From contig OY760937.1 of NCBI GenBank assembly GCA_963664225.1, positions 4,704,001-4,768,000 on the forward strand: a stretch of 64,000 bases of DNA, read 5' to 3'. Position 1 is the stretch's first letter; every line of letters begins with the position of its first letter. Shown piece by piece: positions 4,789 to 32,001 of the stretch. Source of the stretch: Verrucomicrobiia bacterium. GTDB taxonomy: Bacteria; Verrucomicrobiota; Verrucomicrobiia; Limisphaerales; UBA1319. A model generated the notes under the pieces. The model saw only the letters and a program-made list of their open reading frames with translations, was not told the DNA's origin and made no database searches. The position numbers were made by a program, and so were the translations under genes.

Positions 4789-4977
4789 GATGATCCTGAG
4801 AACTGCGGAAGATTGAACCACAACGCCGCCCAACTTCCAGGCCGCATCTTGCCAATCGCCGGGAGCTGAAATTTCTGATTGCGGTTGATTGTTGTCGCTA
4901 CAGTTGTGCGCAGTTTGTAAGGTCAGCAACTAATTGCTTTGCGCCACCTGGATTGTATGTCCATCCTTGAACAGACG

Positions 4978-13421: not shown

Positions 13422-16298
13422 ATGTCTATGAAAACTGAAAAGTCCTGCCGGTTCATAAAATGGTCCGCCGCCGCGGTGTGTGCCGCGTGGCTGGCTGCCG
13501 GGTCATTCGTCGAGTCTTATGCCCAGACTCCTCCGCCTGGAGCTGCCACCAATCCGCCTGCGCCGGCGTCCAAATTCAAGGAATTCGGCGAGGTGGTGAA
13601 GGGCTGCGACAAGTTCGAGGGATTCTTCAATCTCTACCGGACCAATGACACGCTTTACGCGGAAATCAAAGGCGGGGTTCTGGACCAGCCCATACTGTCG
13701 CCGATTGCCATCGCCCGGGGAATGGCCTCGGCCGGACAGCCGTTGAATTTCGGGGATGAATGGATTTTGGTTTTTCACCGGGAAGGGGACAAGATTCAGG
13801 TGATTCGCCGCAATATTCATTACCAGGCGCCGGCAGGCACACCGCTCGAAAAGGCGGTGAAGCAGAATTACACGGATTCGGTGCTGATGGCCCTGCCCAT
13901 CGTCACGCTTAATGGGGCCAATCCGGTGATTGATTTTTCCCAAATCTATTTTACGGACTTCGCCAATTTGCGGATGGGGCAGTTGGATCGCAACCGAACT
14001 TCATGGCATAAGATCAGCACGTTTCCCAATAACATCGAGTTGGAGGTGGAGGCGACCTTCATGACTGGCGGGAACATGTCCATGATGTCCTCCTATAGTG
14101 ATGATGGAGTGGCGGATGGACGTGGTGTCACGCTGGTGATTCACTTCAGCCTGGCGAAGCTGCCGGAAACGGGCTACAAACCGCGCCTGGCGGACAACCG
14201 TGTGGGCCATTTCATCAGTGCGAGCAAGGACTTCGGCTCCACCGATGCGGATTCGATGTTTGTGCGGCAGATCAACCGGTGGCGCCTGGAGAAGGCGGAT
14301 CCCAAAGCCAAGCTCTCGCCGCCGAAGAAACAGTTGATCTGGTGGGTGGAGGATACCGTTCCCCATGAGTTTCGTCCGTATGTGCAGGAGGGAATTCTGG
14401 AATGGAACAAGGCCTTTGAAAAAATCGGATTCCGGGATGCGATCGGTGTGCGCTGGCAGAATGAGCGTGACGACTTCGATCCCGAGGACATCAATTACTG
14501 CACGTTCCGCTGGATTACGACGAGCACGACCTACGCCATGTCCGGGCTCAGGGCCAATCCCCTGACTGGTGAAATGATCGATGGGGATGTGATTTTCGAC
14601 GCAAGCTGGATTCGCTATTGGAAAACACAATACGCCTTTCTGGTGGGCAAGCCGGTGGCTGCCACGGAAGGTGGGCCGGAATCTTATCGCCCACTCATGG
14701 CTGCGGAGATCATCAGCCCCATCATGGCCGCCAAATACGGTTATGGCCTGCCGATGCCACTTCTTGCCAACCGGTTGAGAAATCAAATGAGTGCCGGACA
14801 AGCAGGGTTGGAAATTCCGGAGTTGGTTCCCGCCGAGTGGACTCCGATGCAGTTCCAGTTGAGCCGCCGACTCGCGCAGGGGCGATTCAACACCTGCCAG
14901 TGTGTGGCGGGGATGCAGCCTGAGTTCGCGCTGGCCGCGATCGCCATGGCGGCTGAGAGCAAGACCAATCTGGATGGCAAACTGCCGGATGAGTTCCTCA
15001 GGCAGGCCATCAAAGAGGTGGTCATGCATGAGGTGGGGCATTCACTGGGGTTGCGCCATAATTTCCACGGGAGCACGATGCTCAAGCCGGAGGAGATCAA
15101 CGACACCGCCATCACCCGCGTCAAAGGCATGTCGGGCAGCATCATGGATTACAACCCAATCAATATCGCCCCCAAAGGGCAAAAACAGGGGGATTATGCC
15201 AGCACCACTCTTGGGCCGTATGATTATTGGGCGATCGAATATGCCTACAAGCCCATTGAAGGGGACGAACCGGCCGAGTTGAAAAAAATCGCCGAACGCT
15301 CTCCGGAAGCGGATCTGGTTTATGGCACCGACGAGGACATGTACATGAATGACGATCCCTACGTCAACGTGTATGACCTGACCTCCGATCCCATGAAATA
15401 TGGCCAGGACCGTATCGCACTGGCGGCGGAATTGTTAAAGAACCTGGATGAAAACATCGTGAAGGACGGGGAATCGTGGGCGCGGTTGCGCCGGGCTTTC
15501 ACAGTCCTGCTCGGGCAATACGGCAACGGGACCTACCTGGCCGTTCAGTATATTGGCGGGCAATCTGTTTCCCGCGACTTCAAAGGCTCAAAGGACGCAC
15601 ACGATCCTGTGACACCCATTGCCGGCGAAACGCAACGGGAGGCGATAAAGTTCCTGGTCGATAAAATCCTGAGCACACAGGCCTTCGAGTTTTCGCCTGC
15701 ATTATTACGGCGCCTGACGGAGGAGCATTGGTATCATTGGGGGGATGAATCGATGTCATTCGGCGGTGGCATCAATTATCCCATCAATGAACGGGTGCTG
15801 AGCATTCAACGCATTGTGTTGAACCAGTGTTTCAACGGCAGCGTCCTGGCCCGCATCCAAAATCAGGAACTCCAGGCTGATTCGGGGGCGAATCCGATCA
15901 AGATTGCCGAAATCTTCCAAATGCTCACCGACGGCGTATGGACGGAGGTCAAGCAGGACAGCAACGGGAATGCCCAGAATGAGATGCGGATTTCCCTGCT
16001 GCGCCGCAATCTGCAGCGCGAACACCTGCAACGCCTTTGCACCATGGTGTTGGGGAACCGCCGCAATCCCTACGACGGGATGTATGGCTACGTCATGATT
16101 CTGGGAGGAACCAGCGGCAACGTGCCTGCGGACGCCCGAAACCTGGCCCGGCTGCATTTGCAGGACATCCGCAAGAACATTCAGGCGAGCCTGGACAATC
16201 AAAACCTTAAGAAAGACAAGGCGACCGAGGCGCATCTGATGGATTGTCAGGACCGCCTGAAAAAGGTGCTTGAGGCCAGTTACATGGCCAACGATTGA
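13422..16298 (+). CDS. Exported zinc metalloprotease, EcxA-like (DUF5117/DUF4953 Met-zincin)
   Basis: Signal peptide, PRLADNRVGHF, RWRLEK, HEVGHSLGLRHNF zinc motif, Met-turn SIMDY, GPYDYWAIEYAY. Start 13422/13428 preferred over 13374. Confidence 0.9.
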   Translation: MSMKTEKSCRFIKWSAAAVCAAWLAAGSFVESYAQTPPPGAATNPPAPASKFKEFGEVVKGCDKFEGFFNLYRTNDTLYAEIKGGVLDQPILSPIAIARGMASAGQPLNFGDEWILVFHREGDKIQVIRRNIHYQAPAGTPLEKAVKQNYTDSVLMALPIVTLNGANPVIDFSQIYFTDFANLRMGQLDRNRTSWHKISTFPNNIELEVEATFMTGGNMSMMSSYSDDGVADGRGVTLVIHFSLAKLPETGYKPRLADNRVGHFISASKDFGSTDADSMFVRQINRWRLEKADPKAKLSPPKKQLIWWVEDTVPHEFRPYVQEGILEWNKAFEKIGFRDAIGVRWQNERDDFDPEDINYCTFRWITTSTTYAMSGLRANPLTGEMIDGDVIFDASWIRYWKTQYAFLVGKPVAATEGGPESYRPLMAAEIISPIMAAKYGYGLPMPLLANRLRNQMSAGQAGLEIPELVPAEWTPMQFQLSRRLAQGRFNTCQCVAGMQPEFALAAIAMAAESKTNLDGKLPDEFLRQAIKEVVMHEVGHSLGLRHNFHGSTMLKPEEINDTAITRVKGMSGSIMDYNPINIAPKGQKQGDYASTTLGPYDYWAIEYAYKPIEGDEPAELKKIAERSPEADLVYGTDEDMYMNDDPYVNVYDLTSDPMKYGQDRIALAAELLKNLDENIVKDGESWARLRRAFTVLLGQYGNGTYLAVQYIGGQSVSRDFKGSKDAHDPVTPIAGETQREAIKFLVDKILSTQAFEFSPALLRRLTEEHWYHWGDESMSFGGGINYPINERVLSIQRIVLNQCFNGSVLARIQNQELQADSGANPIKIAEIFQMLTDGVWTEVKQDSNGNAQNEMRISLLRRNLQREHLQRLCTMVLGNRRNPYDGMYGYVMILGGTSGNVPADARNLARLHLQDIRKNIQASLDNQNLKKDKATEAHLMDCQDRLKKVLEASYMAND

Positions 16299-21546: not shown

Positions 21547-22425
21547 ATGCAACTCGAGACCCTCAAAATGTTCTGCGATCTGGCCGAAACGGAGAGTTTC
21601 ACACGGGCGGCCCAAATCAGCGAGGTCACCCAGTCCGCCGTCAGCCAGCAGATCAGCGCCCTGGAACGCCATTTCAAGTCGATACTCATCGAACGGAGCA
21701 AGAAGAAGTTTCGCCTCACGCGGGAGGGTCAGGTGCTTTACGATTACGCCAAGCAGATGATTCAAACTTATGAATCGCTGCAGAGCAAATTGCAGGAGAT
21801 CAAGGATGTCATTTCCGGCACGATTCGCATTGCCACGATTTACAGCATCGGGCTACACGATTTGCCGCCGTATTTGAAGAAATATCTCAAGACCTTCCCG
21901 ACGGTCAACGTGCATGTGGAATACCGGCGCGCCAACCAGGTTTATGACGATGTGCTCGGCAATGTGGTCGATCTGGGCCTGGTGGCCTATCCAGTCCGCG
22001 ACAGTAAATTGGAGATGATACCGCTGCGCAAGGATCGGCTCGTTCTTATTTGCCATCCCCACCATCCATTTGCGAAGAATTCGGGCGTGAAGCTTTCCGC
22101 GCTCTCAGGCCAGAAATTCATCGGGTTCGAACCTGACATTCCGACGCGCAAGGCGATCGACAAGATCCTGAAGGACCACGGTGTGCTGGTCCAGAACGTG
22201 ATGGAGTTCGACAATATCGAAACGGTGAAGCGCGCGGTGGAAATCGACGCGGGAATCGCCATCGTGCCCCAGGGCACCGTCACTCAGGAAGTGACCAATA
22301 AGACACTGGCCCAGTTGACGATCGATGACGGGGAGTTTTACCGTCCGCTGGCGGCCATTGTGAAGAAGAGCAAGGTCATTTCACCCGCGATCAAGCAGTT
22401 CATCAGCGTACTCAAAGGCGGCTAA
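21547..22425 (+). CDS. LysR-family transcriptional regulator
   Basis: SFTRAA..VTQSAVSQQISALE helix-turn-helix, LTREG, substrate-binding domain with DNIETVKRAVE. Confidence 0.95.
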   Translation: MQLETLKMFCDLAETESFTRAAQISEVTQSAVSQQISALERHFKSILIERSKKKFRLTREGQVLYDYAKQMIQTYESLQSKLQEIKDVISGTIRIATIYSIGLHDLPPYLKKYLKTFPTVNVHVEYRRANQVYDDVLGNVVDLGLVAYPVRDSKLEMIPLRKDRLVLICHPHHPFAKNSGVKLSALSGQKFIGFEPDIPTRKAIDKILKDHGVLVQNVMEFDNIETVKRAVEIDAGIAIVPQGTVTQEVTNKTLAQLTIDDGEFYRPLAAIVKKSKVISPAIKQFISVLKGG

Positions 22426-22449
22426 GGGGCAGGTTTTCGTTGGGCGTTC

Positions 22450-23244
22450 CTAGCGCGAGGCGGAAGAATCGGACGCATACCAATCGCGGATTCGGACGTC
22501 CACGCCCGCATCGGTTCCCAGGAGCTGTTTGAAGCGTTCCAGGTCGCTGCCCCGATAGTGGAATGGGAAAACGACTTTGGGATGGAACGCGCGAACGGGC
22601 TTCGCCGCCTGATCCACATCCATGGTATAGGGCAGATTCATGCAGACAAAGGCGAAATCGATATCCTTCAATGCGCGCATTTCAGGCGTTTCCTCAGTGT
22701 CGCCACTGATGTAAACGCGTTTGCCTCCAAGGGTGAGCACGTATCCGTTGCCGCGGCCTTTGGTGTGAAACTTGAGGCGCTCTTCGGTGGTGTTGTAAGC
22801 GGCGATGGCTTCAATGGGGAACTGCCCGGATATGTTTGTGTCGCCATTGACCAGGGTGGTTGCTTGCTTGCGCAATGAATCGGGGAGCAATTGGACCACG
22901 GCGGTTGGGGCGATGATTTGAGTCTCCGGCTTGATAAGACCCTCAAGCGTTTTGGCATCCAGGTGATCGCCGTGAATATCGGTGAGCAGGATGACATCCG
23001 GTTTTGGGAATTTGCCAAAGAGCTTCGCTCCCCCAACGGGATCGACATAGATGGCTTGTTTATTCCATTCCATGACAAAGCTGGCGTGATGCACGGGGTG
23101 GATGACCAGATCGCCGTTCGAGGTTTGGAAGCGATCCTCCGCGGAGGTGGCGCCAACGGCCGCCAGGCACGGCAGGATAAGGCAGCATAACAGCGAGTAA
23201 AACGCTCTGCTCATTTGCACAGGCATAGTACGATAGGTGCTCAT
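22450..23244 (-). CDS. Exported MBL-fold metallo-hydrolase
   Basis: HASF, IYVDP, TDIHGDH metal motif, YISGDT, MNLPYTM, PFHY; signal peptide (start 23244 or 23214). Confidence 0.88.
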   Translation of the reverse strand: MSTYRTMPVQMSRAFYSLLCCLILPCLAAVGATSAEDRFQTSNGDLVIHPVHHASFVMEWNKQAIYVDPVGGAKLFGKFPKPDVILLTDIHGDHLDAKTLEGLIKPETQIIAPTAVVQLLPDSLRKQATTLVNGDTNISGQFPIEAIAAYNTTEERLKFHTKGRGNGYVLTLGGKRVYISGDTEETPEMRALKDIDFAFVCMNLPYTMDVDQAAKPVRAFHPKVVFPFHYRGSDLERFKQLLGTDAGVDVRIRDWYASDSSASR

Positions 23245-23390
23245 AAAAGTCTCCAAATGGCCCGGCGGGTCAGATCGCGCGATGCCGGGCCTTTTCACGG
23301 TCTGCTGGCAGCATTCCACACGCGTCTGGTTCGCGCAAATGAAACGTTTTCGCAATCTGCCACCGTTCAGTTTTTCAACGACCTTCCAAT

Positions 23391-24332
23391 CTATACGCCA
23401 AAGACCTTGCGCACGAATTCGCGGCTGCGCTTGTGATTCTCAATGACTGAACGGGTGATTTTTGTTCCGCCTTCCAGTGCGAGCTCCACGGTGAACACGC
23501 GCGGCAGATTGTTTTTGCGCACGTAATCTGCGATGGACGTGTAATTGATATCGCCCTGATCGAGGTCTTCCCACCAGATGCCCTGGCGGCTTTGGCGCAA
23601 ATGCCAGGAAACGACTCTTTTGCCATACTGCCTGAGAGCGTCCATGGGTTCGATTCCGCCCTTAAAAACCCAATGAACATCGTAGCAGAAGCCGATCTTA
23701 TCCGGGTCCGTGTGGTCAAAATTATAGTGAAATTCGCGGGCATTATGGGCCATTTCAGGCATGTGATGATGAATGCCGATCTGGATGCCGATTTCCTTAA
23801 GGCCCGTTCCGAGGTCCTTGAGGGCGGCGACCTGGTTTTTCAGCTCCTCATCGGTTTTTTCGCGGCCGATGGGATCGAGATTGCAGCTCAGTCGTCGAAA
23901 ACCCTGGTCGTAGGCAACCTTGGCGGCTGCGAGCAAATTCTTGATGTTCTCAGCGGCTTTATCCGCTTCATGCAGGCGGGCACCGGTATAAAGGGTGACC
24001 GGTTTTAGTCCGCGAGTCTTCATCTGGCCGGCCTGACGGACCGTGTTTTCCGGTTGGTTGACGTCGAGATTGCTTTCCAAGTAATCGTAACCCGTGTCGC
24101 GCAAGGCCGACATGACCCCTTCAATATCGAAGGGCTTTTTATCGCGCTCGGCATACTGTCCCCAGCCAAATTGGTTGGAGCCCACAAGGCCTTTGGCGGA
24201 ATCCGGATTGTCGGCGGCTGTGAGTGCAACCACTGGGAGGCTTCCACCTGCGGCGATGGACAGAAGGGAGAGTTGTCGAAGGAAAACGCGACGGGACAGC
24301 GCGTTGGCCGCAGCAGACGATGTGTTGTTCAT
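23391..24332 (-). CDS. Tat-exported sugar-phosphate isomerase/epimerase (xylose isomerase-like TIM barrel, IolE-like)
   Basis: Twin-arginine SRRVFL signal after the ATG at 24332; IHHHxxE, CYDVHW, WHLR, GDINY, TVE metal-site motifs. Confidence 0.8.
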   Translation of the reverse strand: MNNTSSAAANALSRRVFLRQLSLLSIAAGGSLPVVALTAADNPDSAKGLVGSNQFGWGQYAERDKKPFDIEGVMSALRDTGYDYLESNLDVNQPENTVRQAGQMKTRGLKPVTLYTGARLHEADKAAENIKNLLAAAKVAYDQGFRRLSCNLDPIGREKTDEELKNQVAALKDLGTGLKEIGIQIGIHHHMPEMAHNAREFHYNFDHTDPDKIGFCYDVHWVFKGGIEPMDALRQYGKRVVSWHLRQSRQGIWWEDLDQGDINYTSIADYVRKNNLPRVFTVELALEGGTKITRSVIENHKRSREFVRKVFGV

Positions 24333-24488
24333 GAATTCAGCAAAAAGGATGTTTTGCTTTGCTGCAAGAAGATATTTGGCATTCCCATAAAGACTTAAAC
24401 ACGAATTGCCGCAAAAGTGCTTGTGGGGCCGGGCTTGGAGTTGAGGGACCCATTCGTTCTCTAATTGGGAAATGTTACTCACGCTCAC

Positions 24489-25520
24489 TTACTGTTGCTG
24501 GATGCGATAGAATTGTTTTGGTTGAGTGAGGGCGTTGGTGACCGTTTGTTGCAGGGTGCCGCCGGTGCCGGAAAATGCCGTCTGGGGAAGCGTTGTCCAC
24601 GTGCTCGACGACAAATCGTCGCGGCTTTGGATGACGTAGCTATGTCCCGAAACTGAAGTGACGCTCAGACGCAGATCGTTTCCGATTCTTTCCACAGCGG
24701 TGATGCGCAGTGACGACACCGGAAGGTGGAGGATGAGGGAAAGATGATCGGCCGATCCGTCATTATAGCTTCCGGCGTCACGGGTCATGACGAGCATGAG
24801 TTGAATGGCTCGGGTGCCGACGGGGACGACATTGTTCGTGGCGCGATAGAGAGTCATTGTGACGTTGGTTCGATCCAATGCCAGAACATTGCCTATGGTC
24901 GTCGTTCCCAGCGAATTGGATGATGCGTTTAAAAAAGTTGCGATCAGGGAAGCGCGATCATCTTGAGACGCGAATCCGCCGAACCAGCCGCTCAATTCGG
25001 ATTGTACGGTGCCTGAATCCACTTCCGTGGCTGCTGCGGAGAGATCAATGATCTGTGTGGCACTGGAGGAGGAATTGTTGGGGCCGCCCGTAAAAACATT
25101 GGTGCCGAAGGGCAGGCCCGGCCATGGAAGTGCGGACGCGTCGCCGTAAACTGTCACCGTGAAATTGCCACTGCTGGTCCAGTTTGGCACTGGCACCACG
25201 TCCAACCCCGAAACCGAGCCCGCTCCGGCCTCGGCGTCCGGGTTGGAGATCAGGTTTCTCTCAAACAGACCGGAAGGCGAAGTGTCCGCTGCTGGATTGC
25301 TCCAGAATCCGCCATCCATCGCATAGTCGCCGCCGGTCATGGTCACAGCGGCATCCGCCTGGCCGGTGGAGCCGCTGAGGGAATACTCCCCACCGGTACT
25401 TGTGCCACCGCTGCCGTCGATGGCGAACCAATCGATGGCGAATTGCGCTTCAGCACTGGATGTGCGTAGGCACGCCAAGGCCACGATAAGATTAAGAATG
25501 ACCTTCAGTTCGGTTTTCAT
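24489..25520 (-). CDS. Exported protein: N-terminal IDW/Gly-rich module, galactose-binding-like domain, C-terminal FYR domain
   Basis: Signal peptide from ATG 25520; AIDWFAIDGSGGTSTGGEYSLSGSTGQADA...GGFW; NLISNPDAE...SGWFGG; terminal KQFYRIQQQ. Confidence 0.75.
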   Translation of the reverse strand: MKTELKVILNLIVALACLRTSSAEAQFAIDWFAIDGSGGTSTGGEYSLSGSTGQADAAVTMTGGDYAMDGGFWSNPAADTSPSGLFERNLISNPDAEAGAGSVSGLDVVPVPNWTSSGNFTVTVYGDASALPWPGLPFGTNVFTGGPNNSSSSATQIIDLSAAATEVDSGTVQSELSGWFGGFASQDDRASLIATFLNASSNSLGTTTIGNVLALDRTNVTMTLYRATNNVVPVGTRAIQLMLVMTRDAGSYNDGSADHLSLILHLPVSSLRITAVERIGNDLRLSVTSVSGHSYVIQSRDDLSSSTWTTLPQTAFSGTGGTLQQTVTNALTQPKQFYRIQQQ

Positions 25521-25539
25521 GTCGGATTTCCAGATAAAT

Positions 25540-26835
25540 TCATCTCCCGATGGTGACGGGGCCGCCATAGGCCTCGATTCGCATTTTCTTATTGATCGTG
25601 GCCGTTTCATTTCTTGAACCGGCTTTGACGCTAAGGGTCCCATTATAGGCTACCGCGTTCACACCTGCCGCGAGGGTGCCAAACGGGAGATCGAAGGTTC
25701 CGAGTTGTGGCTGGCCTTGATAGTTAAAGTCCACCCACACTTCATTCCGGCCTATGTTGACTATGGCAGTTGAGGACGCGCTGTTGATGTTGAGAACCGT
25801 GATGGCGACGTTGTTGTTCAAATCATGGAAGGTCTGATCCTGGAGCCGCTCTGCCCCGCCATCGGCCCGAATGAGATAGAAAAGCCCGTCAGGACGAAGC
25901 TCATGAATCAATACTGTATCCTGAGGAATGCCCGCATCCCAGCCCGTCTTGCGGCGAAACTCGATGCTGTAATAATGGTTTGGATTGGCGGCGTCGATGG
26001 GCACCTTGGTCATCAAAAAGCCATTTGCTTCCGGGTGGTTCACGGCGGCGAGGGTTACGGTTTGGGATGTGCCATCCCAAGTCGAAATTCGATCTGCCGT
26101 CAGCCATCCAAGTTTGTCCAGGTTCAGGGTGGTGAGTCCTGGGCCGCTATTTCCGTATGTGCCCGCAAAAACAGGATTGGAATTGCCGAAGGTCATGGCG
26201 CTCATGATATCCCAACCGTCACCGTATGCCCCCGGGCGGCCATCGCTATTTGGATCATAGGACACAGCAGACTCGTCAAAGGTATGGTCCAAACCGTAGC
26301 AATGACCCATCTCATGCGCGGCAAAACTGACGAACCACGCATCCGGATCGAGCAGGACGCGCCCGCCCTGACTGCCTGAGTCAATCTTGACGTTCAAGAT
26401 CGCGATGACGCCATAAAACTTGGATGTATTAACGTTTGTTGCCGCGGCGATGCATGCATCGATGCGTTGCTTGCGGGTCATTGCCTGGCCTTGGGCCAGG
26501 GTAATCCCCATCGTGTACCATCCAGATGTTGCCGTGCCGTCCAAAGAGATCTGACCATAGGACGCATCGCGCCAGTACCCGGCCATCCCAGCGTTGCTGG
26601 TTATAAAAGAGGAATCGAATGTTGGCTCTTGAGGCTGATCGGAGAATTTGCACTTGATCACGGCCCAGGACGTTGGGCCCTGCGGGCCAGCGTTCGCAGT
26701 GAAAGTGCTCATGATCAAGCCTCCAATGGCTGCTCCCAGGACCAATATCAGGCGAGCCATCGAGATTAATAATGCCGGAAGTTGAAAAAACATTTGTTGG
26801 GGTGTTGGAACAGCAGGCATACTTTTCTCACTCAT
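25540..26835 (-). CDS. Exported metzincin metalloprotease (M6/M11-like) with C-terminal GGPVTIG module
   Basis: HEMGHCYGLDH zinc motif, YGDGWDIMS Met-turn, KLGWL, YSIEFR...GWD; signal peptide fits best from ATG 26760. Confidence 0.8.
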   Translation of the reverse strand: MSEKSMPAVPTPQQMFFQLPALLISMARLILVLGAAIGGLIMSTFTANAGPQGPTSWAVIKCKFSDQPQEPTFDSSFITSNAGMAGYWRDASYGQISLDGTATSGWYTMGITLAQGQAMTRKQRIDACIAAATNVNTSKFYGVIAILNVKIDSGSQGGRVLLDPDAWFVSFAAHEMGHCYGLDHTFDESAVSYDPNSDGRPGAYGDGWDIMSAMTFGNSNPVFAGTYGNSGPGLTTLNLDKLGWLTADRISTWDGTSQTVTLAAVNHPEANGFLMTKVPIDAANPNHYYSIEFRRKTGWDAGIPQDTVLIHELRPDGLFYLIRADGGAERLQDQTFHDLNNNVAITVLNINSASSTAIVNIGRNEVWVDFNYQGQPQLGTFDLPFGTLAAGVNAVAYNGTLSVKAGSRNETATINKKMRIEAYGGPVTIGR

Positions 26836-26950
26836 TGGCTCAAGGCCGCTGCCGTGAAGAACTGGCCGATGTTCGTTGCGTGAAGCATTGTGTTTGGATT
26901 ATATTCAGATTCACAGGTTGGCTTTCTTTAAATCGGCAGTCGGTTTTGTT

Positions 26951-27478
26951 TCATTGTCCGGAGAGGTGCCCGGCGGCGTTCTCCGCCGGAGACCAGAACG
27001 AATCCCCTTTGGGCCTCGAACTTCTGGCATGGGTGAGTTTCCGGGCCTCTTTGTAAGCCGTGCGGGCTTTAGCGGTGTGGCCGAGTTTTTCCTCGGCCCA
27101 GCCCTTGATCAGAAGGCACGTGGCCACGTCGTGAAGAATTCCATATTGGGCGATGCTTTTCCGCCCGGCCTCTGTGACCACACCGGTTGGCAGAGTCACC
27201 TTGGCGGAGTCGAGGGCGGCCTGGCTCCGATTGGCCGCTTCGCCAAAACGAGCGATGCACAGGTCGGCGTTCGTGATGGCTGCGGCGTACTGGGTATTCT
27301 GAAATGCAGTCCAGGCATCAGCCGTGTATTTTTGGTGGAGTGGTTCGCTCAATGGCGGGCGTGAGGAGTCCATGGCCGGGGAGGGTTCGGGAACCGGATC
27401 GCCCTGCGCGCATACATCAATTCCAAAACCGACGGCGAGGAAGGCTGCGAGGAGAACTATAAAACTTGAGTTTTTCAT
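26951..27478 (-). CDS. Small exported helical (TPR-like) protein
   Basis: Signal peptide from ATG 27478; AW.AF...Y..AI...D.CI..F, LHDVATCLLIKG, FWSPA. Confidence 0.65.
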   Translation of the reverse strand: MKNSSFIVLLAAFLAVGFGIDVCAQGDPVPEPSPAMDSSRPPLSEPLHQKYTADAWTAFQNTQYAAAITNADLCIARFGEAANRSQAALDSAKVTLPTGVVTEAGRKSIAQYGILHDVATCLLIKGWAEEKLGHTAKARTAYKEARKLTHARSSRPKGDSFWSPAENAAGHLSGQ

Positions 27479-27535
27479 TCGATTTAATGTACCAATTGCA
27501 TGTAGTTTCAACGATTCACAGGTGTTCGCATATCG

Positions 27536-29170
27536 CTATGGTGCGCCGATTGTTACGGGACCGCCTGAATAAGCCTCCAGCACGACGCTTTTGAATAGCG
27601 TTATCTGCTCGTTGTAGTGTCCTCCAAAGATGTGAAGCGTTCCACTCGTGATGTTCGCGTGTGCGGCGCCGACCGTCGTATAGGGAAAGGCGGGGGAACC
27701 GTCTTGAGTGCCCGGATTGGGGGTATTCCACCTGACAAAGAAATCGCGGGGCGGCATCGAGATCTGTGTCCACCAGGTGCTCCATGTGCCGGTATCCGTG
27801 CGGGTCCATTCACTTACAGCCCAAAAGGAGCCATCGTTTGGATCGGGCCACACACTGAAGTAATCGCCCCAGCGGCCGTCATTGTTGGCGGTGGGACTCT
27901 CTTTGACCACTATCGGCGCGCCAAAGGTGCTGCCATAGGCTGTGCGCCAGGAGACCATCATGGCTGGATAGCGCGTGGACGATGATCTCGTCCAGGTCAT
28001 GGCCACGTCTCCAGCTTGATTCGCGCTGATGGACGGCAGGTAGTTCCAATCGGTAAGAGCCCCAACGGTGCCTTCTTCTTCGAGGGTGGGGGTCCCGCTC
28101 TGGGGCCAGCCATTGAGGCGTATCTGCCAGTAGGCGGCCAAAGCTGGACCGCCGGGTTGGCCGCGAGTCATGCAACACCAGAGATCCCCGTTGACCAGTG
28201 TCGCATTGCCCTGCATTTTGCCTTGGATTGGATCCACCAAATTGGTGGAGCCGAGTTGGGGCGCCTGGTTGGTCGGGCCCGCACCGACATCCGCGACGGT
28301 TACAAAACTCGTGGTCAGCGTGCGCGTAGTTAGAGGATTACTTACGGCATAGAGCTTCAGGGTGGTGTTGTTCCAGTTGCCCACCATATACATCACGTTA
28401 CCCGGTCCTCCGCCCATGGGTGAGACCGGCTGAAGCGTGATGGCATCTGTGTAGAGTGAAGCGATTGTGCCGGTGCCAGCGATGAGTTGCGCCTTGTTCA
28501 TGATAAGCAGGGCGGAGTTAAGCACATCGCATCCGCAGCCGCTCATATTGCCGCTTTTGTCGAAGGCAAACATCCGGTAAGCCACGTAGAGCGCCTGACT
28601 GTCCACCGCCATTCCAGGATAATCGCCACCGTAATTCACCCCGCCGGCAGTATTGGTTGCTGTATATTCGGTGGCGTCGAAGCGGTAGATGATCCAGTCC
28701 GTCGCGCCCGTGCTGCGCGGATCGGAGTTACGCGAGACGGCCACGTTGAGCCACAGCCGGCTGTTATGATCTTCCTGCATGATCACGAAAAAGCGTCGGC
28801 TGCCTTGATCAAAAAGCACACGCGGATCGGCATTGTTGTTGCCGATGCCAGCGTTTCCGACGAAGAACGTCGGGAGGTTGGTCGGGCCCCAGATGAGGGT
28901 GCCAGACTTGGTGTAATAACTGATGCCGAGGTTCACCGTTGCGATCACACCATCCGGACCTGGCGCGCCGTGTGGATCGGGTGGTGGACCGACGGTGCCG
29001 CTTGGGTCAGGGCCGCTGATGCCTTCCCAGCTTTGAACAATGCCCTGGCCATGCGCAGTAACGATCATCAGCAAGCAGGCACACGACACGGCTGAAAAGT
29101 GTCGCCAGAGATCCTGCAAGCCTGAGTATGGATTCTTCATACAATCCGATCCATTCTGAAAACGCATCAT
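27536..29170 (-). CDS. Exported predicted beta-propeller protein with C-terminal GGPVTIG module
   Basis: Signal peptide; PPDPHGAPGP, DPRVLFD, DYPGMAVD, RWGDY motifs; ATGA overlap with the upstream fibre gene (alternative start 29140). Confidence 0.75.
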   Translation of the reverse strand: MMRFQNGSDCMKNPYSGLQDLWRHFSAVSCACLLMIVTAHGQGIVQSWEGISGPDPSGTVGPPPDPHGAPGPDGVIATVNLGISYYTKSGTLIWGPTNLPTFFVGNAGIGNNNADPRVLFDQGSRRFFVIMQEDHNSRLWLNVAVSRNSDPRSTGATDWIIYRFDATEYTATNTAGGVNYGGDYPGMAVDSQALYVAYRMFAFDKSGNMSGCGCDVLNSALLIMNKAQLIAGTGTIASLYTDAITLQPVSPMGGGPGNVMYMVGNWNNTTLKLYAVSNPLTTRTLTTSFVTVADVGAGPTNQAPQLGSTNLVDPIQGKMQGNATLVNGDLWCCMTRGQPGGPALAAYWQIRLNGWPQSGTPTLEEEGTVGALTDWNYLPSISANQAGDVAMTWTRSSSTRYPAMMVSWRTAYGSTFGAPIVVKESPTANNDGRWGDYFSVWPDPNDGSFWAVSEWTRTDTGTWSTWWTQISMPPRDFFVRWNTPNPGTQDGSPAFPYTTVGAAHANITSGTLHIFGGHYNEQITLFKSVVLEAYSGGPVTIGAP

Positions 29171-30876
29171 TGGAGCGAAACCAGTACGAGCACCATCCCT
29201 TTGCCGTCCTTGAGCGCGCTCATTGCCTTGCCCAGGATGGCGCCCTGGGCTTTCGTGTGATCGCTGGCTTTCATTGCGTGACCGGGGGTGTCGGAAGTGG
29301 TCAGCAAATCACCCGGTTTGATGGCTCCATTGGTGGTGTCAGCGAGCACATATAAACGGCCGCTCAAGGCCACGTTCTGGCCGCCCTCCAAAACACCATC
29401 CTGATGCAGGCTAATGCCGGGATTCACGCCGTTGGCGCCGCTCACAATTCCGGCCACGCGCGTGTCGTAAGCATGCGAACTGAGTTTCAGTTTTCCGGGA
29501 TTTTCTTCGTCAATGATCAGGACCGAGCCTTTGACAATATCAGCCGCAGAGAGTTCGAAAGGCTCCGCTAGATCGGCTCCGCCTCGAATGGTGAGGGTTT
29601 TGACACTGAAATTGCCCGAATTGAATAGTTTGGCGTAAGCGTTGCCATCGCTGCCATTGAGGTAGCTCTCGGGCTCGAACACTGTATCGCCGCCCACGCC
29701 CTGAATGCGGCTGCGGGCATAGCCCGCGTTATCGTCAAGCAGCGTGAGAAAGGGCTGATACCCAATAAGCCGAAGGGCATCCTGACTGACCACTTCGAGC
29801 TTCCCCACCGGTAGGGCCGAACCGATGCCGACGTTGCCATTGTTGGCGAGCTTGAGGAAAGAGAACGGGTTCGCGCCGCTCATGTAACTTTCGGTGAACA
29901 AATTCACGTCACCACCCACCCCTTGAATGCGGCTGCGCGCATAACCGGCGTTGCTGTCGTAAATGGTCAGGAACGGGTTGAAGCCAATGAGCCGAATGGC
30001 ATCCTGGGCCACTATTTCAAGTTTTCCGACGGGTGCCGACGAGCCGATGCCAACGTTGCCGCTTTCGGGATTGAGAATGACATCATTGTTGGGATTCAAA
30101 GCGAGCACCGGACTCCACGCGGCGGGACCAGTTTTCCTGAAGAAATAGAGGGCTCCAGGTCCAACGCCCCCAAGATGCATAATCCAGGACTGATCGCCAG
30201 TGTCGGCATCTCCCGTGAACCGAATCGTTGGCCGGTGTCCGCTCAACTGCAGAGCGCCCTGTTCACCATTCCAATCGCCCGCAACCTGCAAACGCCCACT
30301 GGGTGTGGTTGTTCCGATGCCAACATTGCCCGCGCTATAATAGGCATTATTGCCACTGACCGACCAGATGCCGCCCGCGGCGACCCCGGGATCGCTCCAG
30401 GAAAGATTGCCGCCACTATAGGAGAGGAACTGTCCTGGCTTGGGTGCAACCCCGCCTGTGTTCAATTGGCTCGCGGCCACGCTACCATCCCCAACGCTCC
30501 CTGCCGTTTGCGCGCGGATCGCATAGGGCGAGGAAGTGACTTCCTGCCGTGGAGTCAGGGCTGTGAAGGCGGCGGCACCCAACGGGCGGACGGAGATGTC
30601 CAGCCAGCGCGCCGGACCGGTGAAAGTATTCGCGCCAAAGTCGATTCGCACTGTGAACAAACCGTTCGCGACGTCCACAGGGCTGAGATCAAGCGGACCG
30701 GCAATGAGATTTCCGCCGGCATTCAAATCGTAAAGATTGAATCGCATTTCGTACGGTCCGGAGACTGGCACCCCTTTGCTATTGAGCCTTCCATTATAGG
30801 TGAAGGCGGTGCTTTGGGCGGAGGTCAGGGCCAGGCTGCCCAGGAAGAGTAGCAGTGTTGCGAATGTGGTTTTCAT
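29167..30876 (-). CDS. Exported tail-fibre-like protein with GNVGIG repeats and a C-terminal intramolecular-chaperone-like domain
   Basis: Signal peptide from ATG 30876; TAFTYNGRL...PRQ..TSSPYAIRA N-domain; three GNVGIG repeats; GGADLAEPF...VALSGR..V..D...G.I.PGDLLTTS..PGHAMKA...GKAM C-domain. Confidence 0.8.
   Translation of the reverse strand: MKTTFATLLLFLGSLALTSAQSTAFTYNGRLNSKGVPVSGPYEMRFNLYDLNAGGNLIAGPLDLSPVDVANGLFTVRIDFGANTFTGPARWLDISVRPLGAAAFTALTPRQEVTSSPYAIRAQTAGSVGDGSVAASQLNTGGVAPKPGQFLSYSGGNLSWSDPGVAAGGIWSVSGNNAYYSAGNVGIGTTTPSGRLQVAGDWNGEQGALQLSGHRPTIRFTGDADTGDQSWIMHLGGVGPGALYFFRKTGPAAWSPVLALNPNNDVILNPESGNVGIGSSAPVGKLEIVAQDAIRLIGFNPFLTIYDSNAGYARSRIQGVGGDVNLFTESYMSGANPFSFLKLANNGNVGIGSALPVGKLEVVSQDALRLIGYQPFLTLLDDNAGYARSRIQGVGGDTVFEPESYLNGSDGNAYAKLFNSGNFSVKTLTIRGGADLAEPFELSAADIVKGSVLIIDEENPGKLKLSSHAYDTRVAGIVSGANGVNPGISLHQDGVLEGGQNVALSGRLYVLADTTNGAIKPGDLLTTSDTPGHAMKASDHTKAQGAILGKAMSALKDGKGMVLVLVSLQ
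29617..30060 (-). repeat. Tandem 222-nt (74 aa) intragenic duplication in the fibre gene
   Basis: GNVGIGS..PVGKLE.V.QDA.RLIG..PFLT..D.NAGYARSRIQGVGGD occurs twice; units start at 30060 and 29838. Confidence 0.9.
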
Positions 30877-31334
30877 GGTGTGGGTTAATGGTTGGTGATG
30901 CTCATGAATTACCCCTGCCATCGGGGTTGGCGGTTTGAAAAGGGAACCAATAAGTTTTCAGGTAAAGCGATGGGACTTCCATGGCTTCGAATTGAATCCA
31001 ACTTTTCAACGCATTCATTTTTCCTGCCCTGTCGGTGACTGTGGTTACGGGTCGTTGCGCCTGCGAGTTAATGGGTCAGGCGGCGACTCTCCCGGCAAAA
31101 GTCCGCCTCGATAGAAGATGTGTCAAAATATAAATACGAATAATAATGATAAAAAAACCTAATGAAACAACGGGTCAATTCCTGCAGGTTTTGGGCCGCA
31201 TCCAAGTGAGCGACCGGCGGCAGAGGATGTCCGGCATTCATGTCACCGCAAAATTCGGGTGGCTTACACGGACGACCAGGTGCATCTTAGTGAGACGCTG
31301 GAAGGCCAGCGACAAGCCAAAGAATCAGATAAAC

Positions 31335-31544
31335 ATGAAACCGATCTTCTCACCCAACATCAGCAATAAAGGCCGACTCATTCGTGGGGGTGGAGCGTTA
31401 CTATTCTTTATTGGCGCATGGTTTGCCTTTGGCGTGTCGATATGGATCGGAGCGGGGATGATTGCGTGCGGCGGTTTCGTATTGTTCGAGGCGCTGCGGG
31501 GTTGGTGCGCGCTGCGCGCTTGCGGCATCAAGACGAGGTTTTGA
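31335..31544 (+). CDS. Small membrane protein, DUF2892/YgaP-like
   Basis: PNI...GRLIR, two hydrophobic helices, GWC...GIKT; ATG 31335 preferred over 31146. Confidence 0.75.
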   Translation: MKPIFSPNISNKGRLIRGGGALLFFIGAWFAFGVSIWIGAGMIACGGFVLFEALRGWCALRACGIKTRF

Positions 31545-31557
31545 GCGCAAGCCCTGC

Positions 31558-32001
31558 ATGAAAGAGTTTATCCTGCACGCCGAGCTTTGGCTTCCGCGTC
31601 CGTGCATCGAGATCTTTCCGTTTTTCGCCGACGCGCGGAATCTGGAGACCATCACGCCACCGTGGCTGAAATTCCAGGTGCTGACGCCTTCGCCCATCGC
31701 AATGCGGCCAGGAGCATTGATTGACTACCGGATTCGCATTCACGGAATTCCCATTGGCTGGCGGACGGAAATCACGACATGGGAGCCGCCGCACCGTTTT
31801 ATCGATGTGCAACTGCGCGGTCCATACAGTCTGTGGCACCACACGCACACCTTCGAGGCTTGCGATGGCGGCACGCTTTGCCGGGACAATGTGCGCTATC
31901 GTCCACACGGCGGGGCACTCGTTAACTGGCTTTTTGTGCGGCGGGATGTCGAACGCATTTTTGAGTATCGGCAGCAGCGGCTGAAGGAGTTTTTTAGTTG
32001 A
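31558..32001 (+). CDS. SRPBCC/START-fold protein
   Basis: FFADARNLETITPPWL, W.TEIT.WEPP.RF.D.Q.RGPY.LWHHTHTF. Confidence 0.85.
   Translation: MKEFILHAELWLPRPCIEIFPFFADARNLETITPPWLKFQVLTPSPIAMRPGALIDYRIRIHGIPIGWRTEITTWEPPHRFIDVQLRGPYSLWHHTHTFEACDGGTLCRDNVRYRPHGGALVNWLFVRRDVERIFEYRQQRLKEFFS

What the first reader, a model, noticed from the sequence alone, without database searches (positions are those of the whole stretch)
25540..27748. Two unrelated exported proteins share a ~68-aa C-terminal module ending EAY(S)GGPVTIG
Seen: the metalloprotease ends EVWVDFNYQGQPQLGTFDLPFGTLAAGVNAVAYNGTLSVKAGSRNETATINKKMRIEAYGGPVTIGR (~25540-25746). The propeller ends DFFVRWNTPNPGTQDGSPAFPYTTVGAAHANITSGTLHIFGGHYNEQITLFKSVVLEAYSGGPVTIGAP (~27536-27748). 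They align throughout although the rest of each protein is unrelated. Known: the pattern V...G(S/T)...P(F/Y).T...A......GT..I..G...E resembles the N-terminal cap of right-handed beta-helices (DUF1565-like). Inference: an orphan cap at the extreme C-terminus may be a sorting signal, or a docking module that completes a beta-helix in trans.
Basis: partly seen in the sequence, partly recalled or inferred. Interest (0 to 1): 0.78.

Follow-up and report, generated by a model that had tools for sequence, protein, structure and literature searches.

The report
Cargo plug for bacterial surface fibres
The shared 68-residue tail is real and marks a large, undescribed family of exported enzymes and propellers whose genes almost always sit directly behind a phage-like surface-fibre gene, so it most likely plugs these proteins onto the fibre.

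Summary
The two proteins (window 25540-26835 and 27536-29170, minus strand) share only their last ~55-68 residues (BLASTP 44% identity, E 1e-6).

A profile of the two tails finds 1467 proteins at E<=0.001. Of the 97 single-match proteins among the best 150, 92 carry the tail within 5 residues of the C-terminus. The passengers are unrelated: many peptidases, Kelch/BNR propellers and a lipase.

In sequence and fold the tail is the N-terminal cap plus first rung of a right-handed beta-helix (DUF1565 start). No Pfam or NCBIfam model covers it.

New here: tail-bearing genes lie next to a MAT-like fibre gene (window 29167-30921). That gene's ~150-residue C-terminal domain (CTD) is very conserved and folds like tandem beta-tulips (phi29 gp8.5 base, gp12 autochaperone).
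- 20 of 22 full tails in relatives lie within 4 kb of a CTD.
- 58 of 68 named loci have a strict tail gene just downstream of the CTD.

A complex prediction gave weak support: ipSAE 0.44 against 0.00 for the best control.

Best reading: a plug-and-socket docking pair, not a sorting signal. This scan had also flagged the same stretch as a candidate fibre system.

The parts
29167..30921 (-). Fibre gene (584 aa). It has a signal peptide, a conserved N-terminal region (about residues 35-150) and a MAT-like shaft with GNVGIG...P..KLEV repeats. Its stop overlaps the start of P0002 (shared bases 29167-29170).
   Evidence: ORF. PDB 8OND Bd2133, E 5.4e-4 on the shaft; profile against 8OND 1.4e-7 and against 8OJN 0.0097. 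PHROG tail fibre 1.9e-5. NF053851 Bdello_MAT_N 0.039, below cutoff. Homologues next to module genes.
29170..29694 (-). Fibre C-terminal domain (CTD, residues 410-584). Motif ...LTIRGGADLAEPF...; ends LVLVSLQ. This is the proposed socket.
   Evidence: alignment with 54-78% identity to the window CTD; 5377 proteins at E<=1e-5, all named 'hypothetical'. AF2 pLDDT 69.5. VIA Z 9.8 to phi29 gp8.5 N-base and Z 8.2 to phi29 gp12 694-854; ends at the protein C-terminus in 118 of 120.
27536..29170 (-). Cargo 1 (P0002, 544 aa). Exported protein with no Pfam family; possibly a beta-propeller.
   Evidence: A 70%-identical orthologue sits behind a fibre gene in L023.
27536..27745 (-). C-terminal plug module of P0002, stop codon included.
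   Evidence: (HMM E 1.8e-39).
26951..27511 (-). Small TPR-like exported protein (186 aa) between the two cargo genes. Role unknown. Among the fetched loci it is conserved only in L023.
   Evidence: TPR_2 at 0.002, below cutoff; 56%/120 aa (segment listed from the window side) or 49%/182 aa (from the L023 side) to L023 8987-9832.
25540..26835 (-). Cargo 2 (P0001, 431 aa as the longest ORF). Exported zinc metalloprotease (HEMGH). The likely true start is the Met at 26760, which precedes the signal-like stretch (inference).
25540..25746 (-). C-terminal plug module of P0001, stop codon included.
   Evidence: AF2 pLDDT 96.4; beta-helix N-cap fold.
24489..25643 (-). Exported protein whose N-terminal Gly-rich region (residues 46-127, ...IDWFAIDGSGGTSTGGEYSLSGSTGQ...) belongs to a small-protein family that follows fibre cassettes. 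The likely true start is the Met at 25517 (inference).
   Evidence: homologues after the cassettes in L016, L018, L020 and L023; the family is present in 38 of 80 loci, 41 of 42 members on the fibre strand.

Best explanation
The ~68-residue tail is a docking module, a 'plug'. It is a free-standing beta-helix N-cap plus first rung, and it ends in a conserved terminal strand (...EAYGGPVTIG). It attaches Sec-exported cargo proteins, mostly peptidases and beta-propellers, to the trimeric beta-tulip C-terminal domain (the 'socket') of a MAT-like surface fibre encoded immediately upstream. One fibre gene can serve one or two cargo genes; here these are the propeller-like P0002 and the metalloprotease P0001.

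Shown: the module family and its strict C-terminal position; its beta-helix-cap fold; the CTD family and its beta-tulip-like fold; and the near-obligate adjacency of the two gene families across Verrucomicrobiota and some other labelled phyla.

Inferred: direct binding; three-fold stoichiometry; display at the fibre tip.

Speculative, by analogy with phi29 gp8.5 N-base and the C-termini of the capsid Ig domains: the free C-terminal strand of the plug completes a beta-barrel of the socket. That would explain why the module must be the last thing in the protein.

Open: whether the CTD stays on the fibre, so that cargo is displayed, or is auto-cleaved like phi29 gp12 D4, so that cargo leaves with it.
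For: Module family. A1 profile: 1467 proteins at E<=1e-3. Of the best 150, 97 have a single match, and 92 of those end within 5 aa of the C-terminus. Four more carry C-terminal tandem copies.

Passengers. Among 63 representatives they are unrelated: reprolysin, trypsin, S8, C1, S53, M23+LamG, GDSL, Kelch, RCC1, FG-GAP, galactose oxidase. No Pfam family covers the tail in any of them.

Fold. AF2 pLDDT 96.4. VIA: 9rkv_M Z 8.0, rmsd 2.1, 67 aa. Pectin methylesterase 1xg2_A residues 3-69, Z 5.0. Pel9A, Z 4.9. The top Foldseek rows (ranks 1-13) are all beta-helix proteins, but E >= 0.07.

Synteny in 61 genomes of the window's order. 20 of 22 module matches that reach the model end lie within 4 kb of a CTD match on the same contig. 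16 of 18 strong CTD matches have such a module. The other 2 sit at contig ends (gene maps).

Synteny in other classes of the phylum. Only 2 of 300 genomes (G064, G353) had a full module. Both have the CTD directly upstream.

Synteny in 80 named loci fetched with the CTD. Of the 68 with >=2500 nt downstream, 58 have a strict module ORF downstream on the same strand, with a median of 1785 nt from CTD-ORF end to module-ORF end. Five of the 10 exceptions have weaker or C-terminally extended HMM matches in the next ORF. Four have a by-eye similar ending. One (L039) has none.

Other points. The window shows a 4-base stop/start overlap between the fibre gene and P0002. The CTD fold matches trimer-forming beta-tulip domains, and in phi29 such a base is completed by C-terminal strands of its partner (PMC6542822, passages read).

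Complex prediction, three CTD copies plus the P0001 module: verdict 'weak support'. ipSAE 0.44 (runs 0.44, 0.60, 0.41) against a best of 3 controls of 0.00. Partner pLDDT >= 82; runs agree in >= 88% of contacts. In the tool's calibration the mark was reached by 116 of 157 solved complexes and 2 of 215 mismatched pairs. Scores of 0.60 or under came from only 18 of those 157 solved complexes and from both mismatches that passed.
Against: No binding has been measured. The complex score lies in the tool's weak band, which it calls 'more often wrong than right unless the guess was likely beforehand'. No interface was returned, so the strand-complementation idea is untested. That job used my own shallow alignments and three copies of one chain, unlike the tool's calibration.

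No fused CTD+module protein (Rosetta stone) was found among the 272 proteins held.

The two modules in the window are only 44% identical, so one socket would have to accept divergent plugs.

If the CTD is cleaved off like phi29 gp12 D4, cargo would not be displayed on the fibre.

Adjacency shows a functional link, not contact.

Exceptions exist: P0087 carries the module at residues 32-99 of 478, and P0124 and P0077 have 236 and 60 residues after it.
Confidence: 0.6

Rival explanations
1. The module is a C-terminal sorting or secretion signal, like a T9SS CTD or PEP-CTERM. Dedicated export or anchoring machinery recognises it, and the fibre is simply another substrate encoded nearby.
For: The module is strictly C-terminal on diverse exported passengers with signal-like N-termini (54 of 62 by a crude rule). 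That is the pattern of known sorting domains.
Against: There are only 2 copies in the 5.78-Mb genome and 1-4 in relatives, whereas known sorting tags usually mark many proteins per genome (general knowledge). No export, sortase-like or outer-membrane family is conserved beside the loci; the only recurrent neighbours are the fibre, a small Gly-rich protein and a Ser/Thr kinase. The fibre itself lacks the module. No match to sorting-domain models in Pfam or NCBIfam. The module is a well-folded globular domain (pLDDT 96.4).
Confidence: 0.1
2. The module is an autonomous binding or anchoring domain, for example glycan or cell-envelope binding, or a self-association unit. Synteny with the fibre then reflects only co-regulation in a common surface programme, without contact between the two.
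For: Beta-helix proteins are typically carbohydrate-active (entry titles). The complex support is only weak. No fusion with the CTD was found.
Against: The link is specifically to the CTD and not to fibres in general. In L023, four further fibre genes match only the fibre's N-terminal region and are not followed by module genes, while the one with the CTD is. Adjacency is nearly one-to-one in both directions. A 68-residue cap lacks the long groove that binds polysaccharide in beta-helix enzymes (general knowledge).
Confidence: 0.15
3. The fibre CTD is a gp12-D4-like chaperone or escort. It is auto-cleaved from the fibre and works in trans on the cargo, for folding, trimerisation or release. 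The complex would then be transient or would leave the fibre rather than decorate it.
For: The CTD model matches the phi29 gp12 C-terminal fragment 694-854: Z 8.2, rmsd 2.4, 92 aa, 24% identity, the highest identity in the list. That region is described as an autochaperone made of tandem beta-tulips (preprint 10.1101/216911, passages read). Mature gp12* ends at residue 691 (PMC6542822). The near-invariant D41 and invariant E44 of GGADLAEPF fall just before the aligned start (model 43 = gp12 694). I recall that the gp12 cleavage site and acidic residues lie there; this is recall and was not tested.
Against: No sequence-level match to Pfam Peptidase_G2 even at E<=10. No tblastn match to 50,697 phage records. 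The equally good matches, decoration proteins and the gp8.5 base, are stable and uncleaved trimers. One homologue has A in place of D41 (P0221).
Confidence: 0.15

Closest known systems
Bdellovibrio bacteriovorus MAT (mosaic adhesive trimer) fibres, e.g. Bd2133 (PDB 8OND) and Bd3182 (8OJN); Caulton et al. 2024, PMC10769870 (passages read)
   Same: An exported, phage-tail-fibre-like protein with the same shaft repeat. Modular, diversified functional ends. A C-terminal domain takes the place of the S74 chaperone.
   Different: In MATs the adhesive tip is fused to the fibre. Here the variable part is a separate protein with its own signal peptide, and the fibre ends in one conserved domain. The cargo is mostly hydrolases, not adhesins. 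The NCBIfam Bdello_MAT_N match is below cutoff. No S74 domain is present.
phi29 head fibre gp8.5 N-base on capsid Ig domains (PDB 6QYY/6QVK; PMC6542822)
   Same: Best fold match of the CTD: Z 9.8, 102 aa. It is a trimer of tandem small beta-barrels at the base of a fibre. Its missing strands are supplied by the C-termini of the partner. This is the model for a strictly C-terminal plug.
   Different: No detectable sequence relationship. The domain sits at the N-terminus of a phage fibre and binds a capsid. The contact in our pair is not known.
phi29 gp12 tailspike D4 autochaperone (PDB 3GQH/3SUC; MEROPS/Pfam Peptidase_G2)
   Same: Fold match Z 8.2, 24% identity. A C-terminal position on a trimeric fibre or spike. 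An acidic motif just before the domain.
   Different: No Pfam PF11962 match. Cleavage is untested. gp12 has no separately encoded partner with a matching module, as far as I recall.
DUF1565 (PF07602) / right-handed parallel beta-helix N-terminal cap
   Same: The module profile matches the first ~45-60 positions of DUF1565 domains. The fold superposes on beta-helix N-termini.
   Different: The chain stops after the first rung, lies at the C-terminus of unrelated proteins, and has its own conserved ending EAYGGPVTIG. The window modules do not reach PF07602 even at E<=10.
Cohesin-dockerin (cellulosome), and phage fibres with separately encoded tip proteins (T4-type gp37/gp38; recalled)
   Same: Works alike if the reading is right: a small terminal module on many different enzymes plugs them onto a scaffold or fibre encoded nearby.
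   Different: Unrelated folds and sequences. Dockerin is a Ca-binding helical module, and Dockerin_1 was seen in only one unrelated giant protein (P0121). The scaffold here is a trimeric fibre with a single socket type.

Membership tests
DUF1565 / right-handed beta-helix (PF07602, PF13229) | Sequence match to the N-terminal cap region of the family | tested here: met
   The module profile hits positions that coincide with profile positions 1-6 of PF07602 in P0026, P0041, P0073, P0085 and P0121. The window modules themselves give no PF07602 hit at E<=10.
DUF1565 / right-handed beta-helix (PF07602, PF13229) | Several stacked beta-helix rungs following the cap | tested here: not met
   The protein ends 0-2 residues after the first rung. 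The model has only E2-5, H25-31, E36-45 and E55-66.
DUF1565 / right-handed beta-helix (PF07602, PF13229) | Cap fold | tested here: met
   9rkv_M Z 8.0, rmsd 2.1, 67 aa. 1xg2_A residues 3-69, Z 5.0. 1ru4_A, Z 4.9. 3vst_A, TMq 0.81. Foldseek E-values are all >= 0.07.
MAT fibre family (Bdellovibrio) | Shaft repeats homologous to solved MAT fibres | tested here: met
   8OND Bd2133: E 5.4e-4 with the single sequence, 1.4e-7 with the profile. 8OJN: 0.0097.
MAT fibre family (Bdellovibrio) | N-terminal MAT domain (NCBIfam NF053851) | tested here: inconclusive
   E 0.039, 13.8 bits against a cutoff of 60.
MAT fibre family (Bdellovibrio) | S74 chaperone or a fused adhesive tip | tested here: not met
   No Peptidase_S74 or other tip family. 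The C-terminus is the conserved CTD instead.
Peptidase G2 / phi29 gp12 D4 autochaperone | Tandem beta-tulip fold at the C-terminus of a trimeric fibre | tested here: met
   3gqh_A Z 8.2, rmsd 2.4, 92 aa, 24% identity. The model's pLDDT is only 69.5.
Peptidase G2 / phi29 gp12 D4 autochaperone | Sequence membership (Pfam Peptidase_G2) | tested here: not met
   Absent from Pfam scans of four CTDs at E<=10. The only hit was PF23982 XM1_gp53_minor_capsid at 1.7e-4, below its cutoff.
Peptidase G2 / phi29 gp12 D4 autochaperone | Autocatalytic cleavage releasing the domain | not testable with these tools
   Only the conserved GGADLAEPF motif is seen. That it corresponds to the gp12 site is recalled, not tested.
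Known C-terminal sorting domains (T9SS CTD, PEP-CTERM, LPXTG and the like) | Match to a curated sorting-domain model | tested here: not met
   No such family in Pfam or NCBIfam for P0001, P0002 or the isolated modules, nor in Pfam scans of 63 + 61 relatives.
Known C-terminal sorting domains (T9SS CTD, PEP-CTERM, LPXTG and the like) | Many tagged proteins per genome and a linked sorting enzyme or translocon | tested here: not met
   2 copies in G000 and 1-4 in relatives. No such neighbour family in 80 loci.
Cohesin-dockerin | Dockerin or cohesin sequence families | tested here: not met
   No Dockerin_1 or Cohesin hit on cargo or fibre. The likeness is functional only.

The most novel reading that the evidence does not exclude
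Verrucomicrobiota, and some other soil and water bacteria, carry a widespread and undescribed plug-and-socket system. Phage-derived MAT-like surface fibres end in a universal trimeric beta-tulip socket. Interchangeable, separately exported enzymes (S53, astacin, S8, M4, C10 peptidases, a lipase, propellers) are loaded onto it through a 68-residue orphan beta-helix cap whose free C-terminal strand completes the socket. The result would be enzyme-armed fibres: a fibre-borne, cellulosome-like way to hold degradative enzymes at a distance from the cell. Cargo cassettes would be swapped by recombination behind a constant fibre gene.
Probability: 0.4. Interest if true: 0.85.

Novelty: new variant of a known kind. 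Interest (0 to 1): 0.74.

Why it matters
Two large domain families have no Pfam or NCBIfam model. One is the ~68-aa C-terminal plug: 1467 representative proteins at E<=1e-3, a count that includes beta-helix caps. The other is the ~150-aa fibre CTD: 5377 clusters at E<=1e-5, every source name listed among the best 120 being 'hypothetical'. Here they turn out to be near-obligate genomic partners.

If the docking reading holds, MAT-type fibres are more than adhesins with fused tips. They would be carriers for separately encoded, exchangeable enzymes, mostly proteases. That bears on how abundant soil and freshwater Verrucomicrobiota feed or attack other cells. It would also supply a compact natural tag-and-socket pair for displaying proteins on trimeric fibres. 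Finally, it gives a concrete, testable function to an 'orphan' piece of a beta-helix.

Tried and rejected
1. The search for related loci with the module alignment A2 failed because no stretch was conserved enough. I used the genome search instead, and later search for related loci with the CTD alignment.

2. Pfam and NCBIfam on the isolated modules gave only noise: SlpA at 0.089 and GEVED at 0.12.

3. Foldseek against PDB gave no hit at E<=0.001 for either model. The fold assignments rest on VIA Z-scores and on the consistent nature of the top rows.

4. A PDB sequence search with the CTD profile found only MAT shafts. It found no gp12 and no decoration protein.

5. tblastn of the CTD against 50,697 phage records gave no match.

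6. I looked for a CTD+module fusion among the 272 proteins held and found none.

7. 'Cap-less beta-helix partner': none of the conserved neighbours is a beta-helix protein. The own-genome weak hits (2205139, 2041466, 1919266) are ordinary beta-helix N-caps that end before the module's terminal strand.

8. Cargo as a protease that matures the fibre: rejected as a general explanation, because 12 of the 35 cargo proteins with a Pfam family are Kelch or BNR propellers, and a lipase and a beta-lactamase-fold protein also occur.

9. Literature searches found nothing on this domain pair. The library lacks most subscription journals.

10. Complex prediction returned only weak support and no interface, so the strand-complementation idea could not be examined.

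11. Promoter and terminator scans of 22300-31700 were no better than shuffles.

12. Not done: a mirror-tree or co-variation test of plug against socket. With ~58 pairs that share phylogeny it would not be decisive.

Full report
**1. Observation**

The window region 24.4-31 kb carries five co-directional minus-strand ORFs:
- 29167-30921, 584 aa.
- 27536-29170, P0002, 544 aa.
- 26951-27511, 186 aa.
- 25540-26835, P0001, 431 aa.
- 24489-25643, 384 aa.

P0001 is a zincin metalloprotease: Reprolysin_5 at 1.8e-6, and the M6 domain TIGR03296 at 1.2e-13, which is below that model's cutoff. P0002 has no family. Language-model look-alikes are propeller-like clusters, which is a lead only.

BLASTP of the two proteins gives one significant segment, their extreme C-termini: 24/55 identical, E 1e-6. 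Every other segment has E >= 1.

**2. The module is a large, strictly C-terminal family**

An HMM of the two tails (A1) searched against 1.84 billion representatives gave 1467 proteins at E<=1e-3 and 78 at E<=1e-10. I re-scanned the best 150 together with the two window proteins (152 in all; 151 matched). They fall into two classes.

(A) 97 proteins have a single, full-length match. In 92 of these the match ends within 5 residues of the C-terminus. The five others are:
- P0080 and P0109, with 6 residues after the match.
- P0077, with 60 residues after.
- P0124, with 236 residues after.
- P0087, with the module at residues 32-99 of 478.

(B) 54 proteins have multiple matches.
- 50 are long proteins (785-6359 aa) that match only the central part of the profile (about positions 15-70), usually at 300-450-aa spacing.
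- Four (P0048, P0056, P0062, P0146) carry tandem full-length copies at the C-terminus.

The class-A alignment shows the consensus WVDF.Y.G...E.GTF..PFNTL.EG..AV..GGTL.IK.GS..ET..I.K.M.I.AYGGPVTIG(R/Q), followed by the stop.

Pfam scans of 63 class-A or near-class-A proteins found unrelated passengers: reprolysin, trypsin, S8, papain C1, pro-kumamolisin, M23+LamG, GDSL, Kelch, RCC1, FG-GAP and galactose oxidase. No family covers the tail in any of them.

In the window's own genome there are only these two full copies.

**3. What the module is structurally**

In six class-B proteins the profile hits coincide with the first positions of DUF1565 (PF07602) or precede Beta_helix repeats (against the coordinates).

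AF2 on an alignment of 25 modules gave pLDDT 96.4: strand, cap loop, helix and two long strands.

Structure searches returned the N-terminal ends of right-handed beta-helix proteins:
- Phage 7-7-1 tail fibre 9rkv_M residues 184-251: Z 8.0, rmsd 2.1, 67 aa.
- Pectin methylesterase 1xg2_A residues 3-69: Z 5.0.
- Pel9A 1ru4_A: Z 4.9.
- XylC 3vst_A residues 1-75: TMq 0.81.

Foldseek E-values were all >= 0.07. The assignment therefore rests on the consistency of these hits together with the sequence link.

The module is a cap plus first rung, after which the chain ends.

**4. The partner**

Searching 61 genomes of the window's order, G000 included, with the module alignment showed few copies per genome, often in pairs on one contig.

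Gene maps of ten fetched regions showed that module genes sit next to homologues of the window's 584-aa protein. The shared part is above all its last ~150-175 residues (CTD; 54-78% identical to the window CTD).

Searching the same 61 genomes with the CTD and cross-tabulating coordinates gave:
- 22 module matches reach the end of the model. 20 of them lie within 4 kb of a CTD match on the same contig. The two without are G003:C272, a 68-aa open frame in a 560-contig assembly, and G051:C45, inside a 3440-aa frame.
- Of 18 strong CTD matches, 16 have such a module. The other two (G021:C253, G028:C599) lie within 850 nt of a contig end, on the side where the next gene would be.

In a 300-genome sample of the rest of the phylum, only G064 and G353 had a full module. 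Both have the CTD directly upstream.

An independent set came from the search for related loci with the CTD alignment. It found 580 relatives in species-representative genomes and kept the best 80. Most are labelled Verrucomicrobiota (Limisphaerales, Verrucomicrobiia, Chthoniobacterales). Some MAGs are labelled as other phyla.

Of the 68 loci with >=2500 nt downstream of the CTD ORF, 58 have a strict module ORF ending downstream on the same strand. The median distance is 1785 nt, and 56 lie within 3.3 kb. The 10 exceptions break down as follows:
- L092 and L094 have good HMM matches followed by 7- and 24-residue tails.
- L042, L059 and L095 have weaker matches in the next ORF. L095 also has a strict module gene upstream.
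- L086, L088, L093 and L103 have next-ORF endings that look module-like only by eye (...RATRGPVTL.R).
- L039 has nothing.

**5. What the partner is**

The 584-aa protein has shaft repeats homologous to the Bdellovibrio MAT fibres Bd2133 and Bd3182: PDB 8OND at E 5.4e-4 with the single sequence and 1.4e-7 with the profile, and 8OJN at 0.0097. It also has PHROG tail-fibre hits. MAT fibres are trimeric, phage-like surface fibres with either an S74 chaperone or diverse fused tips (PMC10769870, passages read).

The CTD has 5377 relatives at E<=1e-5 among proteins of similar length. Every source name listed is 'hypothetical protein', and no precomputed Pfam domain is recorded. It ends at the protein's C-terminus in 118 of 120.

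Its AF2 monomer model is of middling quality (pLDDT 69.5). It nevertheless matches trimer-forming tandem beta-barrel or beta-tulip domains:
- phi29 head-fibre gp8.5 N-base, Z 9.8.
- HFTV1 8qsy_JI, Z 9.6.
- TW1 capsid-stabilising protein, Z 8.4.
- phi29 gp12 fragment 694-854, Z 8.2, with the highest identity in the list (24%).

The only Pfam hint is XM1_gp53_minor_capsid at 1.7e-4, below cutoff. The XM1 capsid entry 7kmx also appears in the fold list, at Z 7.3.

According to the P74-26 decoration-protein preprint (10.1101/216911, passages read), gp12 D4 is a pair of beta-tulips that acts as an autochaperone.

**6. Mechanism**

The linkage is specific to the CTD. In L023, four further fibre genes match only the fibre's N-terminal region and are not followed by module genes. 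The CTD-bearing one is.

Cargo proteins have signal-like N-termini in 54 of 62 cases by a crude charge-plus-hydrophobicity rule. Several of the eight misses show a signal further in.

Cargo families from 61 ORFs (L085 dropped as a duplicate of L084):

| Family | ORFs |
|---|---|
| S53 pro-kumamolisin | 9 |
| Kelch | 8 |
| Astacin | 6 |
| Sortilin/BNR | 4 |
| S8 | 2 |
| GDSL | 1 |
| C10 | 1 |
| Trypsin-like | 1 |
| M43 | 1 |
| M4 | 1 |
| Beta-lactamase fold | 1 |
| None | 26 |

The most economical reading is that the module docks separately exported cargo onto the fibre's trimeric CTD.

A precedent explains the strict C-terminal position. In phi29, each barrel of the gp8.5 base lacks a strand, and that strand is supplied by the C-terminus of a capsid Ig domain (PMC6542822, passages read).

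Its verdict was 'weak support':
- ipSAE 0.44 (runs 0.44, 0.60, 0.41) against 0.00 for the best of 3 controls.
- Partner pLDDT >= 82; runs agree in >= 88% of contacts.
- In the tool's calibration the mark was reached by 116 of 157 solved complexes and 2 of 215 mismatches. Scores <= 0.60 came from only 18 of those 157 solved complexes and from both passing mismatches.

No interface was reported. Strand donation, stoichiometry and tip display therefore remain inference.

It is also open whether the CTD stays on the fibre or is auto-cleaved at the conserved GGADLAEPF motif. In the CTD alignment D41 is nearly invariant and E44 invariant. The fold alignment puts model residue 43 at gp12 residue 694, and mature gp12* ends at 691. 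That the gp12 cleavage chemistry uses the corresponding acidic residues is my recollection and was not tested.

**7. Rivals**

A sorting signal is unlikely:
- Copy numbers are low.
- No conserved export or sortase-like neighbour exists. Besides the fibre, the recurrent neighbours are a small Gly-rich exported protein (38 of 80 loci) and a Ser/Thr kinase with WD40 repeats (27 of 80 loci).
- No sorting-domain model matches.

An autonomous binding domain that is merely co-regulated with the fibre cannot be excluded, but it does not explain the one-to-one, CTD-specific adjacency.

A trans-chaperone or escort role for a cleaved CTD is a live variant of the main reading.

**8. Novelty**

Five literature searches found nothing on this pair. 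The library lacks most subscription journals, and supplements were not consulted. Neither domain has a Pfam or NCBIfam model.

The scan had flagged the same stretch as a candidate surface-fibre system (e1-7663502). Its follow-up was withheld, and I had reached the fibre link beforehand.

I class this as a new variant of a known kind: MAT-type or phage-type fibres, with a separately encoded, plug-in cargo. Binding still has to be shown.

Noticed in passing
window 24489-25643 (-); also L016 8700-9272, L018 4346-4813, L020 9658-10128, L023 2001-2579 / 4749-5555 / 15108-15701: A family of small exported Gly-rich proteins (signal peptide, then ...IDW.AIDGGGGTSTGG.YSLSGTIGQ...GG.Y.L.GGFW) follows fibre cassettes. 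It is present in 38 of 80 CTD loci, with 41 of 42 members on the fibre strand. It also follows fibres that lack the CTD. The window copy is longer (384 aa), has a weak PHROG virion-structural hit, and ends ...FYRIQQQ. Possibly a fibre anchor or assembly factor.
   Followed up: partly
L027 3-2141 and 26 other loci of L025-L104: A ~845-aa Ser/Thr protein kinase with C-terminal WD40 repeats recurs beside the fibre cassettes: 27 of 80 loci, 26 of 30 members on the fibre strand. None is adjacent in the window. An earlier scan note (e1-2409390) describes kinase-linked ECF sigma clusters with secreted partners in Verrucomicrobia.
   Followed up: partly
L023 (G013:C37:314000-332000): An array of at least five fibre genes shares the window fibre's N-terminal region (residues ~35-150). 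Only one of them has the CTD, and only that one is followed by a module gene (70% identical to P0002) and a TPR gene like window 26951-27511.
   Followed up: partly
window 29167-29170: The fibre stop codon overlaps the P0002 start codon by 4 bases, which suggests translational coupling.
   Followed up: no
L058, L060, L063, L071, L087 (labelled Bifidobacteriaceae/Bifidobacterium); L027, L088, L093 (labelled Akkermansia); L044 (Saccharimonadales): Several MAG records that carry the cassette bear taxon labels that look implausible for a Gram-negative surface-fibre locus. This points to mis-binning or mislabelling in the deposited records. Labels such as Ignavibacteria, Eisenbacteria, Acidobacteriota and Thermoflexales on long contigs may reflect real spread.
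   Followed up: no
P0087 (478 aa), P0124 (732 aa), P0077 (440 aa): Rare proteins carry the full module away from the C-terminus: residues 32-99, 431-496 and 313-380 respectively. These could be gene-call fusions across a stop, or genuine internal copies.
   Followed up: no
P0048, P0056, P0062, P0146: Some proteins end in two or three tandem copies of the module. This could mean multivalent docking.
   Followed up: no
window 21547-24488: Flanking genes are a LysR regulator (by eye), an exported MBL-fold hydrolase (Lactamase_B_3) and a xylose-isomerase-like TIM-barrel protein. The last abuts the cassette with no gap (24488/24489). Upstream of the fibre lie a GH16 glycosidase, a PQQ/BamB-like propeller and an RNase II gene.
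   Followed up: partly
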